Positions 16,153 through 19,100 of a stretch of 64,000 nucleotides of DNA are shown piece by piece. How positions within the stretch are numbered: position 1 is the first letter of the stretch; every line of letters starts with the position of its first letter. Location: NCBI RefSeq assembly GCF_001677475.2, contig NZ_CP015229.1. One strand, 5' to 3'. Below the pieces are notes generated by a model. It was not told the origin of the DNA. It did not search any database and saw only the letters and a list, made by a program, of their open reading frames with translations. The DNA comes from Escherichia coli. Its GTDB lineage: Bacteria > Pseudomonadota > Gammaproteobacteria > Enterobacterales > Enterobacteriaceae. The position numbers and the translations under genes were made by a program.

Positions 16153-19100
16153 ATGTATGAAGCCGCACGGGTGGATGACCCCATCTACCACACCAGCGCC
16201 CTTGCCGGGTTTTTAATTGGGGCGATCATTGGCATTGCCATTATTGCCGTTGCCGCCTTTGCTTTTTTTACCTGTGGCTTTTTAGCCGGGCTGGTGCTGA
16301 GTTTTCTGGCTGACCAGATAGCGTCCGGGGTGCTACAACTGGGAGAAGCCATCGGGCGCTCGATACATTCCACTGCGGGAAAAATTCTGACCGGCTCTCC
16401 CAATGTCAGCACCAACAGCCGACCTGCTGCTCGGGCCGTACTGAGTACGGTGATATGCGAAGACCATTCCCCGGAAATCCGCATTGCTCAGGGATCCGGC
16501 AACATCTACATCAACAGCCAGCCCGCCGCCCGTAAGGAGGACCACACTGAATGTGATGCAGTGATTGAGGACGGCTCTCCCAATGTCTTCCTCGGCGGCG
16601 GTACGCAGACGGTGCTGGAAATCAGACCGGAAATCCCTGACTGGTTGCGTCAGGTGGTGGATGTACTGTTTGTGGTCGCCGGAATGCTTGGCGGGCTGGC
16701 TGGCGCCTGGCGTCAGGCGGCAAAGCTGGGCTCGAAATTTGGCACAAAATGCGCGGCCAAATTTATTGGTGGCGAAATTACCGGGATGGCCGTTTCCGAG
16801 GTCGCTATGGGGTTGTTCAGCAACCCGGTGGATGTCACGACCGGGCAAAAAATCCTGTTGCCGGAGACAGATTTCACCCTGCCGGGCCGTCTGCCTGTCA
16901 CCTGCTCACGCTTTTATGCCAGCCACCTGGAAACAGAGGGAGTTCTGGGTAGAGGATGGCGGCTGAACTGGGAGATAAACCTGCGCGAAGATGAGGCATA
17001 TATCACCTTCATCGGAGTACAGGGCCGGGAGCTGAGTTATCCGAAAGAAATGCTGACGCCGGGCCATCAGATATTCGACCCCGAAGAGCAGTTTTACCTT
17101 AGCCGCCTGCATGACGGGCGCTATGTGCTGCATTACACCGACCGCAGCTATTACGTGTTTGATGAATTTGATGACTACGGCGTCGCGCCGTTACTTTTTA
17201 TGGAGACGCCGCACCGGCAGCGAATTGCTTTCGGGCGTGAGAACGGCAGGCTGGTGCGGGTGGCTTCCAGCAGCGGGCACCATTTGCTGTTGCACCGCAC
17301 GTTGACGCCGGCAGGAGAACGACTTTCGCATATTGAGCTGGTGAAGGGCGGGCGTCCCGGTAACCTGGTGGAATATCGTTACGATGATAACGGGCAACTG
17401 ACCGGTGTGGTGAACCGGGCCGGTGTGACGGTGCGCCAGTTTGCCTATCAAAATGGCCTGATGACAGAGCACCGCAACGCGACGGGCTTCACCTGTACCT
17501 ACCGCTGGGAAGAAGTTGAGGGTTTTCCCCGTGTGGTGGAGCACTCGACCAGCGACGGCGAGGATTACAGGTTCCACTATGATTTTGCTGGCGGGCAGAC
17601 GGTGGTAACCGGCAGGTCAGAGCAGAAGTGGCAGTGGTGGTTTGATGAACAGACGTATGTGACCGCGCATCGGACGCCGGGCGGCGGGATGTACCGCTTC
17701 ACCTACAACGAAAACCATTTCCCGGTGGCGGTGGAACTCCCCGGCGAACGCAGGGTAACGCTGGAATACGACACCCTGAGCCGGGTGGTGAAAGAGACGG
17801 ACGCGGCAGGGCGGATGACACAGACGCAGTGGAACGGCAGTTTTGCTGAAATCACGCGCCGGGCACTGGATGACGACCACGTATGGAAGGCGGGTTACAA
17901 CGAACACGGCCAGGTGATACGGGAGACAGACCCGGAAGGGCGCGTCACGCGGTACGGGTATGATGAACAGGGGCTGGCGGTCAGCCGCACGGATGCGCGG
18001 GGCGGCGAGGTTGCGCTGGTGCTCGATGCGCGCGGTCAACTGACGCGTTACACCGACTGTTCAGGGCGCACCACGGATTATGAATACGATGAAGACGGCA
18101 ACCTGACAGCGGTGACGGACGCAGAAGGGAAAACGGTACGCATCAGCTATAACCGTCTGGGGCTGCCGGAGACGGTCAGCCACCCCGGTAAACAGCAGGA
18201 CCGTTACACGTGGAATGCGCTGGGATTACTGAGCAGCCACCGTCGCATCACGGGCAGCGTACAGTCCTGGCAGTATACGCCGCGCGGCCTGCCGGCAGTT
18301 CACACGGATGAAGAGAAACGGGCGACGCGCTGGCAGTACACACCGGAAGGTCTGGTCGCCAGCCTGAGCAACGGCAACGGGGCGCAGTACCGGTTCAGCC
18401 ACGATGCGGACGGGCGGCTGACGGGAGAACAGCGCCCGGATGGCCTGATACGGATGTTTGTGCTGAATGCGGGCGGCCATCTGGCGCTCATCCAGACGCA
18501 GGGCACAGAGGGCGGGGTGCGTGATGAGCGGCAGGAGCGTGACGCGCTGGGCCGCCTGTTGCGCAGTGACACGCAGCACAGTACACGGACCTTCAGCTAC
18601 AACCGTCTTGACCAGATAACGGAAGTGACACTCACTCCCACGGAAGAAGGGGAACGGCTGCATCACGTGCAGCCGGACACGGTGCGCTTTGCGTATGACC
18701 GCAGCGGGTGGCTGACGGCAGAGCGCAGCGTGCATGGCAGCATAACGTACCGGCGTGACGCGCTGGGTAATCCCACGGACATCACCTTACCGGACGGTCA
18801 GCACCTCAGCCATCTTTACTACGGCAGCGGGCATCTGCTCCAGACGGCGCTGGACGGCATCACGGTCAGCGAATATGAACGTGACAGCCTGCACCGCCAG
18901 GTGATGCGCACCCAGGGGGCGCTGGCGACGTTCAGCGGGTACAACGCCGACAACCGGTTAAGCTGGCAGCGCAGCCTGATAACCGGCAGCCGGAACCCGC
19001 CGCAGGCTGACACACTCCCGTCCCACGGCGACAGCGTGACGGCGCGGGATTACATCTGGAACGCAGACGGTGAAGTCGGCGGCATCAATGACAAACTGCG

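What the first reader, a model, noticed from the sequence alone, without database searches (positions are those of the whole stretch)
16153..16700. prePAAR effector architecture matched by an upstream Eag-type adaptor
The Rhs protein begins with an [10 protein letters not shown] motif followed by hydrophobic helices and a PAAR-like region, the prePAAR arrangement that needs a DUF1795 (Eag) chaperone. A 147-aa ORF in exactly that position (15689..16132) is present. This predicts a VgrG-EagR-Rhs delivery unit.
Basis: partly seen in the sequence, partly recalled or inferred. Interest (0 to 1): 0.35.

Follow-up and report, generated by a model that had tools for sequence, protein, structure and literature searches.

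The report
Known VgrG–Eag–Rhs toxin delivery unit
The sequence really does encode a type VI secretion "spike – chaperone – Rhs toxin" cassette, but it is an ordinary Escherichia counterpart of the Salmonella VgrG–SciW–Rhs1 system, whose structures are solved.

Summary

- **Motif and effector:** the 1380-aa ORF (16153–20295) starts with [10 protein letters not shown] at aa 4–13. This is the only AARxxDxxxH match in six frames (0.04 expected). A hydrophobic block follows (aa ~9–67), then PAAR (72–138), DUF6531, an Rhs cage and a DPIGL-17-DPLGL autoprotease. Pfam calls aa 1–53 "Class I prePAAR effector Rhs1 motif" (E 3e-24).
- **Chaperone:** the 147-aa ORF (15689–16132) is PF08786 (DcrB; the DUF1795 of the literature and some database names), E 1.7e-34. 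It is 74% identical to the Salmonella Eag chaperone SciW (PDB 6XRB/6XRR). Rhs aa 2–59 are 91% identical to the Rhs1 fragment co-crystallised with SciW. All published contact and specificity residues are conserved.
- **Spike and context:** a VgrG lies 23 nt upstream, within a type VI secretion cluster next to yafV-ivy-fadE.
- **Payload:** aa 1252–1380 form an uncharacterised ADP-ribosyltransferase (ART)-fold domain, below threshold for Tox-ART-HYD1. A conserved 111-aa immunity gene follows.
- **Caveat:** tssL in this window carries a nonsense codon (R240*, nt 4462–4464) ahead of its membrane anchor, so the machine may not fire.

Interest is low.

The parts
13452..15665 (+). vgrG (TssI spike), 737 aa. 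It has gpD hub, OB and gp5 needle domains, plus an Ala-rich N-terminal extension of about 100 aa.
   Evidence: Pfam Phage_GPD E 1e-101, Gp5_trimer_C and Phage_base_V. TIGR03361 scores 555 bits. PDB 9MLP gives E=0, aligned over aa 89-732. Substitutions in the N-terminal extension against L001 are biased to third codon positions, 20 of 33.
15689..16132 (+). eag (sciW/eagR orthologue), 147 aa: a cytoplasmic Eag-family (DcrB/DUF1795 domain) chaperone.
   Evidence: PF08786 E 1.7e-34. It is 74% identical to SciW of PDB 6XRB/6XRR. Residues I25, S41, Q58, L66, Q106 and G108 are conserved. There is no signal-peptide-like stretch and no lipobox. Of 29 substitutions against L001, 22 fall at third codon positions.
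16153..20295 (+). Class I prePAAR Rhs effector, 1380 aa.
   Evidence: Pfam prePAAR_I, PAAR_motif, DUF6531, RHS_repeat and RHS. NCBIfam RHS_core, YD_repeat and Rhs_assc_core.
16162..16191 (+). prePAAR motif [10 protein letters not shown] (aa 4-13; D9 and H13).
   Evidence: Regex match, unique in the window. The motif definition AARxxDxxxH comes from PMC7773334.
16192..16335 (+). N-terminal transmembrane region (aa ~14-61), the predicted Eag-binding segment; includes F20 and F43.
   Evidence: KD hydropathy peaks at 2.81. The segment is 91% identical to Rhs1NT in PDB 6XRR. F20 and F43 are conserved.
16366..16566 (+). PAAR domain (aa 72-138).
   Evidence: PF05488 E 2.5e-16. Aligns to the PAAR structures 4JIW/4JIV.
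16633..16722 (+). Post-PAAR hydrophobic helix (aa 161-190).
   Evidence: KD peak 1.92. Aligns with the postPAAR region of Tre23 Rhs1 and with the start of the second transmembrane region of Tas1. In P. laumondii, EagR binds both TMD1 and postPAAR (PMC8636562).
16819..16848 (+). N-terminal autocleavage-type motif [10 protein letters not shown] (aa 223-232).
   Evidence: Aligns to the D288-P289|I290 cleavage site of Tre23 Rhs1. It fits the PVxxxTG signatures quoted in PMC13285283. Asn replaces the Asp-288 of Tre23 (His-304 in RhsA).
19825..19905 (+). C-terminal aspartyl autoprotease motifs DPIGL (aa 1225) and [10 protein letters not shown] (aa 1242-1251). Cleavage is predicted between L1251 and S1252.
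   Evidence: Regex match. The 22-residue spacing of the two Asp residues equals that of RhsA D1324/D1346 and matches the Tre23 layout.
19906..20295 (+). C-terminal toxin domain (aa 1252-1380): ART fold, related to Tox-ART-HYD1, in a low-GC tip.
20288..20623 (+). Candidate cognate immunity gene, 111 aa; overlaps the Rhs stop by 8 nt.
   Evidence: Homologues at 42% and 59% identity sit directly downstream of the homologous toxin in Pectobacterium (L005) and Pseudomonas (L007), with the same kind of overlap. No Pfam, NCBIfam or PHROG hit.

Best explanation
This is a spike-chaperone-effector-immunity cassette at the 3' end of an Escherichia type VI secretion (T6SS) cluster. It closely matches, component by component, the Salmonella VgrG-SciW-Rhs1 proteins with solved structures.

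Inferred mechanism, by homology:
1. A dimer of the 147-aa Eag protein wraps the hydrophobic N-terminal helices of the Rhs protein (aa ~14-61, possibly also the post-PAAR helix at 161-190) in the attacker's cytoplasm. This keeps them soluble and not yet inserted into a membrane.
2. The prePAAR motif (D9, H13) completes the PAAR domain (aa 72-138), which caps the tip of the VgrG trimer encoded just upstream.
3. The Rhs cage encloses the C-terminal toxin and cuts itself at both ends: near NPVDVTTGQ at aa ~224, and after DPLGL at L1251|S1252.
4. After firing, the freed transmembrane helices are thought to help the toxin cross the target's inner membrane.
5. The payload (aa 1252-1380) is an NAD-using ADP-ribosyltransferase-fold enzyme whose substrate is unknown. 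The 111-aa protein encoded next neutralises it in sister cells.

The domain identities, conserved contact residues, gene order and cleavage motifs are shown. Binding, secretion, toxicity and immunity are inferred.
For: **Chaperone**
- Pfam PF08786 (DcrB), E 1.7e-34.
- E 2.5e-67 and 74% identity to SciW of PDB 6XRB/6XRR.
- SciW contact residues I25, S41, Q58, L66, Q106 and pocket residue G108 are all conserved.

**Effector**
- prePAAR_I, PAAR, DUF6531, RHS repeats and RHS core.
- aa 2-59 are 91% identical to the Rhs1 fragment bound in 6XRR. F20 and F43, which set class I specificity, are conserved.
- The motif is unique in the window.
- Both autocleavage motifs are present.

**Spike and context**
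- VgrG: TIGR03361 at 555 bits and PDB 9MLP at E=0.
- Intergenic gaps are 23 and 20 nt, and terminator-like sites across the scanned region (12300-21700) are no more frequent than chance.
- Hcp, TssJ, TssK, TssL and TssM lie upstream in the window. TssB, TssC, TssE, TssF and ClpV lie further upstream in loci that carry the identical Hcp.
- The order Vgr | DcrB-related | RHS is annotated in 17 of the 18 complete E. coli genomes that match the full junction; in the other the upstream gene is tagJ.
- Substitutions against a 91%-identical allele concentrate at third codon positions.

**Toxin and immunity**
- A confident AF2 model with exclusively ART-fold matches.
- The downstream gene co-varies with the toxin across three genera.
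Against: - No experiment was run: binding of the 147-aa protein to the Rhs N-terminus, and any dependence of secretion on it, rest on homology.
- tssL, a core membrane-complex gene of the same cluster, has an in-frame TGA at codon 240 (nt 4462-4464), ahead of its transmembrane helix. Relatives encode a 438-aa fused protein. The truncated product appears on three contigs. The apparatus may therefore be inactive in this strain.
- The toxin is below Pfam's threshold for Tox-ART-HYD1 (20.9 against 25 bits), and its activity (transferase or NADase) is undetermined.
- The residue before the N-terminal cleavage Pro is Asn. A D288N change at the equivalent position abolished cleavage in P. laumondii Rhs1, although RhsA has His there.
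Confidence: 0.9

Rival explanations
1. The cassette is genuine but stranded in this strain. The T6SS that should fire it is disabled by the tssL nonsense mutation, so the unit is retained only as an immunity or toxin reservoir or is on its way to decay.
For: - Codon 240 of tssL is TGA (CGA in relatives). This splits a 438-aa DotU-TM-OmpA protein before the transmembrane helix.
- The exact truncated 239-aa product is found on 3 contigs.
- An ISAs1 transposase fragment and a SymE toxin gene lie just downstream.
- A related E. coli locus (L004) shows the cluster broken after tssL.
Against: - All other genes inspected are full length (TssJ, TssK and TssM match the lengths in L002; Hcp is identical).
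- vgrG, eag and rhs show substitution patterns typical of purifying selection.
- TGA is followed directly by ATG, so re-initiation could give a two-piece TssL.
- Read-through or a sequencing error cannot be excluded.
- A second T6SS elsewhere in the genome was not examined.
Confidence: 0.3
2. The 147-aa protein is a DcrB-type periplasmic or lipoprotein housekeeping factor that merely shares the fold, and has no role with the Rhs protein.
For: Pfam names the family DcrB, and PGAP annotates the orthologues as 'DcrB-related protein'.
Against: - There is no signal peptide or lipobox: KD(12) is at most 0.65 in the first 40 aa, and the only Cys is at position 123.
- It is 74% identical to SciW, which was crystallised around the near-identical Rhs1 N-terminus.
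- Its position between vgrG and rhs is the usual one (17 of 18 full junction matches).
Confidence: 0.01
3. The N-terminal hydrophobic helices anchor the Rhs protein in the producer's own inner membrane, as a surface or contact toxin, and it does not need a chaperone or the VgrG tip.
For: Very strong hydropathy over aa 9-67 and a further hydrophobic helix at 161-190.
Against: - The prePAAR and PAAR modules are diagnostic of spike-tip loading.
- The region is 91% identical to a fragment shown structurally to sit inside an Eag dimer.
- Published prePAAR effectors require Eag for delivery (PMC7773334; PMC8636562).
Confidence: 0.03

Closest known systems
Salmonella Typhimurium SPI-6 VgrG-SciW-Rhs1 (Rhs1 = STM0291, TreTu toxin); PDB 6XRB, 6XRR, 9MVG, 7ZHL/7ZHM. 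PDB 9MLP, titled only 'Cytoplasmic protein', is the near-identical VgrG homologue.
   Same: - Same gene order.
- The chaperone is 74% identical.
- The effector's prePAAR-TMD is 91% identical, with only five conservative changes: V33L, T40S, V48I, S50G and L52M.
- All mapped contact residues are conserved.
- VgrG scores E=0 to 9MLP.
- Tae4 plus an immunity gene also lies in the cluster.
   Different: - The host is Escherichia.
- VgrG carries a longer Ala-rich N-terminus.
- tssL is interrupted here.
Pseudomonas protegens VgrG1-EagR1-RhsA and Photorhabdus laumondii VgrG-EagR-Rhs1(Tre23); PDB 7Q97, 7Q5P, 7PQ5
   Same: - Class I prePAAR Rhs architecture.
- An N-terminal region that aligns over aa 4-248 to Tre23 Rhs1 (E 6e-24).
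- Post-PAAR helix, N- and C-terminal autocleavage motifs, Rhs cage.
   Different: - Much lower sequence identity.
- Different toxins: RhsA's toxin, and the Tre23 23S-rRNA ADP-ribosyltransferase.
- The residue before the N-terminal cleavage Pro is Asn here, against Asp in Tre23 and His in RhsA.
E. coli STEC VgrG(O1)-EagR-Rhs islands (Ma et al. 2017, as cited in PMC7216683 and bioRxiv 10.1101/2024.03.05.583533); Serratia marcescens EagR1-Rhs1 (PMC4524185)
   Same: - vgrG-eagR-rhs operon logic in E. coli, with swappable C-terminal toxins.
- EagR is reported to be required for delivery.
   Different: - Those are orphan vgrG islands elsewhere in the chromosome, whereas this unit sits inside the main cluster next to yafV.
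- This allele is rare: only 20 of 5,426 complete E. coli genomes match the junction, all at 92% identity or less.
Pseudomonas aeruginosa EagT6-Tse6 (class II prePAAR); PDB 1TU1, 6XRF
   Same: Same chaperone fold family (E 4e-6) and the same prePAAR-TMD-PAAR logic.
   Different: - Class II effectors are about 450 aa, lack an Rhs cage and have two transmembrane regions.
- EagT6 has Phe where SciW and this protein have G108, which gives a different binding mode.
Pfam PF15633 Tox-ART-HYD1 (Zhang et al. 2012, PMC3482391); Salmonella Rhs-Tox-ART-HYD1 candidates (PMC10469887)
   Same: - A strand-1 HYT[DN] signature.
- The C-terminal position in polymorphic toxins.
- A predicted ART fold.
- 17 of 18 close homologues, and 19 of the 74 members of the wider alignment (A3, which includes the query), hit the model.
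   Different: - The window protein scores 20.9 bits, below the 25-bit cut-off.
- It carries an extra C-terminal helix of about 27 aa, ending in a conserved Cys, which most profile hits lack (their matches end near profile position 102).
- I found no report of a tested member of the family.

Membership tests
Class I prePAAR effector (Ahmad et al. 2020, PMC7773334) | AARxxDxxxH motif at the extreme N-terminus | tested here: met
   [10 protein letters not shown] at aa 4-13. It is unique in six frames, with 0.04 expected. PF25799 prePAAR_I scores E 3.2e-24, above its cut-off.
Class I prePAAR effector (Ahmad et al. 2020, PMC7773334) | Transmembrane helices between prePAAR and PAAR | tested here: met
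   KD hydropathy peaks at 2.81 over aa 9-67. The region is 91% identical to the Rhs1 TMD in 6XRR.
Class I prePAAR effector (Ahmad et al. 2020, PMC7773334) | PAAR domain downstream of the TMD | tested here: met
   PF05488 over aa 72-138, E 2.5e-16.
Class I prePAAR effector (Ahmad et al. 2020, PMC7773334) | Large Rhs protein (the paper's ~1200 aa class) with YD repeats | tested here: met
   1380 aa. RHS_repeat E 7.6e-59 and YD_repeat_2x E 2.3e-50.
Class I prePAAR effector (Ahmad et al. 2020, PMC7773334) | Only one TMD region, N-terminal to PAAR | tested here: inconclusive
   A further hydrophobic helix lies after PAAR at aa 161-190 (KD 1.92). It matches the 'postPAAR' helix of P. laumondii Rhs1 rather than a full second TMD. 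No dedicated TM predictor was available.
Class I prePAAR effector (Ahmad et al. 2020, PMC7773334) | Eag-dependent stability and T6SS delivery | not testable with these tools
   Requires co-purification and competition assays.
Eag chaperone family (DcrB/DUF1795 domain) | PF08786 domain above the gathering score | tested here: met
   119.1 bits against 27.2, covering profile positions 1-127 of 127.
Eag chaperone family (DcrB/DUF1795 domain) | Conserved TMD-contacting residues (SciW I25, S41, Q58, L66, Q106) and class-I pocket residue G108 | tested here: met
   All six are identical in an ungapped alignment.
Eag chaperone family (DcrB/DUF1795 domain) | Cytoplasmic, i.e. no signal peptide or lipobox, unlike DcrB itself | tested here: met
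   KD(12) is at most 0.65 in the first 40 aa, and the only Cys is at 123. This is a simple hydropathy test, not a trained predictor.
Eag chaperone family (DcrB/DUF1795 domain) | Encoded next to a prePAAR effector, typically between vgrG and the effector | tested here: met
   Gaps of 23 nt and 20 nt. The same order is annotated in 17 of the 18 full-length E. coli matches; in the other the upstream gene is tagJ.
Eag chaperone family (DcrB/DUF1795 domain) | Domain-swapped dimer that binds the effector TMD | not testable with these tools
   Inferred from 74% identity to SciW. No complex prediction tool was available.
T6SS VgrG spike | gpD hub, OB fold and gp5 needle | tested here: met
   Phage_GPD, Phage_base_V and Gp5_trimer_C. 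TIGR03361 at 555 bits. PDB 9MLP, 7Q5P and 4MTK.
Self-cleaving T6SS Rhs cage | C-terminal PxxxxDPxGL aspartyl protease with two Asp residues 22 apart | tested here: met
   D1225 and D1247, with [10 protein letters not shown] at aa 1242-1251. Layout as in RhsA and Tre23.
Self-cleaving T6SS Rhs cage | N-terminal cleavage motif (x-P-[VI]-x-x-x-[TS]-G) | tested here: inconclusive
   NPVDVTTGQ at aa 224-232 aligns to the Tre23 site. However, Asn replaces Asp-288, and a D288N change blocked cleavage in Tre23. RhsA has His at this position.
Tox-ART-HYD1 (PF15633) | Score at or above the Pfam gathering threshold | tested here: not met
   20.9 bits against 25, E 5.6e-4. Relatives reach E 1.5e-9.
Tox-ART-HYD1 (PF15633) | ADP-ribosyltransferase fold | tested here: met
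   [not shown]
Tox-ART-HYD1 (PF15633) | NAD-dependent transferase activity | not testable with these tools
   An ART fold can also give an NADase, as for Tne2 and Tne5.

The most novel reading that the evidence does not exclude
The delivery module is conventional, but its payload (aa 1252-1380) belongs to an untested branch of the ART superfamily. The branch is HYD1-like, with nearly invariant H8, Y9, T10 and E82 (domain numbering). The close enterobacterial and Pseudomonas subgroup also has an extra C-terminal helix ending in a conserved Cys. The family spreads as orphan Rhs tips in Escherichia, Salmonella, Pectobacterium, Cronobacter, Photorhabdus and Pseudomonas. It could have a substrate or chemistry different from the characterised T6SS ART-fold toxins (TreTu, Tre23, Tre1, RhsP2, Tne1-5).
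Probability: 0.3. Interest if true: 0.35.

Novelty: already known. Interest (0 to 1): 0.12.

Why it matters
For the finding as stated, it matters little. It is a correct annotation of a well-understood T6SS loading module, and the same proteins are already in NCBI as "Vgr family", "DcrB-related" and "RHS repeat-associated core domain" proteins.

The practical value is modest:
- It gives PGAP's uninformative "DcrB-related protein" label a specific function in this locus: a SciW/EagR-type chaperone.
- It defines the toxin and immunity boundaries of an uncharacterised ART-fold Rhs tip.
- It flags that the tssL nonsense codon may make the whole weapon inert in this strain. That would matter to anyone inferring competitive ability from gene content alone.

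Tried and rejected
- **Shallow toxin alignment.** AF2 on the toxin with 18 close homologues gave an unusable model (pLDDT 52.5). It was rescued only after an exhaustive profile search supplied 74 diverse sequences.
- **Immunity protein and the HExxH pair.** NCBIfam, PHROGs and Pfam gave nothing for the 111-aa immunity protein or for the HExxH 233-aa / 128-aa pair. A PDB sequence search on the HExxH protein gave only noise.
- **Toxin and immunity DNA in E. coli.** Megablast against 5,426 complete E. coli genomes found no match. Only the SymE gene downstream matched.
- **Promoter and terminator scans.** Scans across 12300-21700 were at chance level (11 against 9.7, and 8 against 9.5). They neither support nor contradict a single operon.
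- **Tne5.** I considered that the toxin might be Tne5 of Pluralibacter. That domain is 174 aa with a Lys/Glu pocket, and the paper never mentions HYD1, so I did not equate them.
- **DcrB-type periplasmic protein.** Rejected on the absence of a signal peptide or lipobox and on 74% identity to SciW.
- **VgrG start codon.** I considered that the long VgrG N-terminus might be a mis-called start. Third-position-biased substitutions argue that it is translated.
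Full report
**Observation**

The ORF at 16153–20295 (+) encodes a 1380-aa protein that begins [59 protein letters not shown].
- The prePAAR consensus AARxxDxxxH (definition from Ahmad et al. 2020, PMC7773334) matches at aa 4–13, nt 16162–16191.
- It is the only match in all six reading frames of the 64-kb window. One hundred shuffles gave a mean of 0.04 matches.
- Hydropathy is very high over aa 9–67, with a 19-residue Kyte–Doolittle peak of 2.81.
- A PAAR domain follows at aa 72–138 (PF05488, E 2.5e-16).
- The 147-aa ORF at 15689–16132 is real. It sits 23 nt after the stop of a 737-aa ORF and 20 nt before the Rhs start, which is preceded by GGAGG.

**What the three genes are**

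*The 147-aa protein.*
- It matches PF08786 (DcrB; called DUF1795 in the literature and in some database names) end to end, at 119 bits against a cut-off of 27.2.
- Against solved structures it hits Salmonella SciW (PDB 6XRB, 6XRR, 9MVG) at E ~1e-67, and more distantly P. aeruginosa EagT6/PA0094 at E 4e-6.
- BLASTP gives 74% identity to SciW over 142 residues with no gaps.

*The Rhs protein.*
- It hits PF25799, "Class I prePAAR effector Rhs1 motif" (aa 1–53, E 3.2e-24).
- It also hits PAAR, DUF6531 (224–296), eight RHS-repeat stretches, the RHS core, and NCBIfam Rhs_assc_core (1184–1251).
- Its aa 2–59 are 91% identical (53/58) to the Rhs1 fragment crystallised inside the SciW dimer in 6XRR. 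The five differences are all conservative: V33L, T40S, V48I, S50G and L52M.

*The upstream 737-aa protein.*
- It is a complete VgrG, with gpD hub, OB fold and gp5 needle, and scores 555 bits against TIGR03361.
- It scores E = 0 (1346 bits) to PDB 9MLP. It also matches P. protegens VgrG1 (7Q5P), the cognate spike of RhsA.

**Residue-level checks against the published mechanism**

- Ahmad et al. attribute class I specificity to Rhs1 F20 and F43 inserting into SciW pockets backed by G108, and VgrG binding to the D and H of prePAAR.
- Van Schepdael et al. 2026 (PMC12881460) map TMD contacts to SciW I25, S41, Q58, L66 and Q106.
- All of these are identical here: Eag I25, S41, Q58, L66, Q106 and G108; Rhs D9, H13, F20 and F43.
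- The 147-aa protein has no signal-peptide-like segment and no lipobox, with its only Cys at position 123. It is therefore a cytoplasmic Eag, not a DcrB-type envelope protein.

**Context**

- The window is Escherichia: yafV–ivy–fadE at 21675–25637 is 97.4% identical to E. coli.
- Upstream lie Hcp (1309–1800), TssJ, TssK, TssL, an OmpA-like domain and TssM (6039–9905). Next come a Rap1a-like/Tae4 pair, then TagF.
- Loci that carry the identical Hcp show TssF, TssE, TagJ, ClpV, TssB and TssC further upstream.
- Terminator-like sites across the scanned region (12300–21700) are no more frequent than chance.
- Against a 91%-identical allele (strain PapRG-06-5, L001), substitutions fall mostly at third codon positions: 22 of 29 in eag and 65 of 85 in the first 250 Rhs codons. 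This indicates purifying selection.
- PGAP annotates "Vgr family | DcrB-related | RHS" in that order in 17 of the 18 complete E. coli genomes that match the full junction; in the other the upstream gene is tagJ. Only 20 of 5,426 genomes match at all, and none above 92% identity.
- The exact VgrG, Eag, Rhs and immunity proteins are already in NCBI: ANO87390–92 and WP_244585965. Cluster members occur in E. coli, E. marmotae, E. albertii and Shigella.

**Rest of the effector**

- After PAAR there is a further hydrophobic helix at aa 161–190 (KD 1.92). [quoted passage not shown] In P. laumondii, EagR contacts both TMD1 and postPAAR (PMC8636562).
- The sequence [10 protein letters not shown] (aa 223–232) aligns with the N-terminal autocleavage site of that protein (D288-P289|I290). 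Asn stands where Tre23 has Asp; the D288N mutant did not cleave. P. protegens RhsA has His there. Whether this Rhs is cut at its N-terminus is therefore open.
- The C-terminal aspartyl autoprotease is intact. DPIGL (D1225) and [10 protein letters not shown] (D1247) are 22 residues apart, as in RhsA D1324/D1346. This predicts cleavage at L1251|S1252.

**Payload**

- GC content falls from 55–64% in the Rhs core to 35% at nt 20000–20499, the usual core/tip discontinuity.
- The tip (aa 1252–1380) gives only a sub-threshold hit to Tox-ART-HYD1 (20.9 bits against 25). However, 17 of 18 close homologues also hit that model. The homologues come from Salmonella, Cronobacter, Pectobacterium, Photorhabdus, Pseudomonas and an assembly labelled Vagococcus.
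- An exhaustive profile search found 192 relatives, mostly at the C-termini of larger proteins. Of the 74 members of the resulting alignment (A3, which includes the query), 19 hit PF15633, the best at E 1.5e-9.
- With that alignment AF2 gave pLDDT 94.2 and pTM 0.88. The shallow alignment had given 52.5.
- The fold cannot distinguish a transferase from an NADase. Tne5 is a recent example of an ART-fold NADase.
- The 111-aa ORF at 20288–20623 overlaps the Rhs stop by 8 nt. It has homologues at 42% and 59% identity directly downstream of the homologous toxins in Pectobacterium and Pseudomonas, with the same overlap. This supports a cognate immunity role, although no family model matches it.

**Caveat on function**

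- In relatives, tssL encodes a 438-aa DotU–TM–OmpA fusion. In the window, codon 240 is TGA instead of CGA (nt 4462–4464), immediately followed by ATG and upstream of the transmembrane helix.
- The exact truncated 239-aa product appears on three contigs in public data, so it is probably a real allele.
- A TssL without its membrane anchor would be expected to disable the apparatus (my inference). Re-initiation at the adjacent ATG, or read-through, could compensate.
- This does not change what the VgrG–Eag–Rhs unit is. It does mean delivery in this strain is unproven.

**Comparison with what is known, and verdict**

- The unit closely matches the Salmonella VgrG–SciW–Rhs1 components with solved structures, and has the same architecture as P. 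protegens EagR1–RhsA, P. laumondii EagR–Rhs1 and Serratia EagR1–Rhs1.
- vgrG–eagR–rhs islands have already been described in E. coli (Ma et al. 2017, as cited in PMC7216683 and bioRxiv 10.1101/2024.03.05.583533).
- All testable defining features of a class I prePAAR effector and of an Eag chaperone are met, with one exception. "Single TMD region" is inconclusive because of the post-PAAR helix, which is itself a known feature.
Novelty is nil for the delivery module and modest for the untested ART-fold tip. Interest is 0.12.

Noticed in passing
window 3745-5061 (stop at 4462-4464): tssL carries an in-frame nonsense codon, R240* (CGA to TGA), directly followed by ATG. This splits the 438-aa DotU-TM-OmpA protein seen in relatives into a 239-aa cytosolic part and a 198-aa TM+OmpA part. 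The stop precedes the transmembrane helix. The truncated product is found on 3 public contigs.
   Followed up: partly
window 13452-13780: VgrG has an Ala-rich N-terminal extension of about 100 aa before the gpD domain. PGAP annotates the same 737-aa form. Substitutions against L001 are biased to third codon positions (20 of 33), so it is probably translated. The solved homologue 9MLP aligns only from aa 89. Its function is unknown.
   Followed up: partly
window 12343-13427: A low-GC (36%) gene pair lies just upstream of vgrG: a 233-aa protein with an HEAGH (HExxH) metallopeptidase-like motif, then an overlapping 128-aa protein with a hydrophobic N-terminus. Neither hits Pfam, NCBIfam or PHROGs, and a PDB sequence search on the 233-aa protein gave only noise. 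This is a candidate uncharacterised periplasm-acting effector-immunity pair, annotated 'hypothetical' in E. coli.
   Followed up: partly
window 10152-11320: A low-GC insertion between tssM and tagF holds a 231-aa protein with two Rap1a immunity domains, then an overlapping Tae4 amidase effector. The immunity gene is upstream of the effector. The same arrangement is seen in L002 and L003.
   Followed up: no
window 20673-20966 (-) and 21347-21661 (+): A SymE-family type I toxin gene lies on the opposite strand right after the Rhs immunity gene, followed by a fragment of an ISAs1-family (H-repeat) transposase. SymE genes sit next to Rhs tips in L001, L004 and L005 too, suggesting a recurrent association.
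   Followed up: no
window 16633-16722 (Rhs aa 161-190): A hydrophobic helix lies after PAAR in a 'class I, single-TMD' effector. It aligns both to the postPAAR helix of P. laumondii Rhs1 and to the start of TMD2 of the class II effector Tas1. This hints that the two classes share this element.
   Followed up: partly
window 16819-16848 (Rhs aa 223-232): The N-terminal autocleavage-type motif reads [10 protein letters not shown], with Asn where P. laumondii Rhs1 has the Asp-288 needed for cleavage. The E. coli allele in L001 has the same Asn.
   Followed up: partly
window 15600-16400 versus E. coli genomes: This allele of the vgrG-eag-rhs junction is uncommon. Only 20 of 5,426 complete E. coli genomes match it, all at 92% identity or less, although the flanking core genes are 97.4% identical to E. 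coli. The 90%-identity protein clusters that contain these proteins also include E. marmotae, Shigella and unclassified Escherichia, and, for the immunity protein, E. albertii.
   Followed up: partly
window 263-670 and 683-1135: Two small ORFs (about 135 and 150 aa) lie between tssC and hcp. They have no Pfam hit and are conserved in L002-L004. Their function is unknown.
   Followed up: no
L004 (E. coli GCA_002110245.1) 12437-18100: In a related E. coli genome with the identical Hcp, the cluster is broken after a truncated tssL by Rhs fragments, two SymE genes and foreign DNA. This is an example of decay of the same T6SS locus.
   Followed up: no
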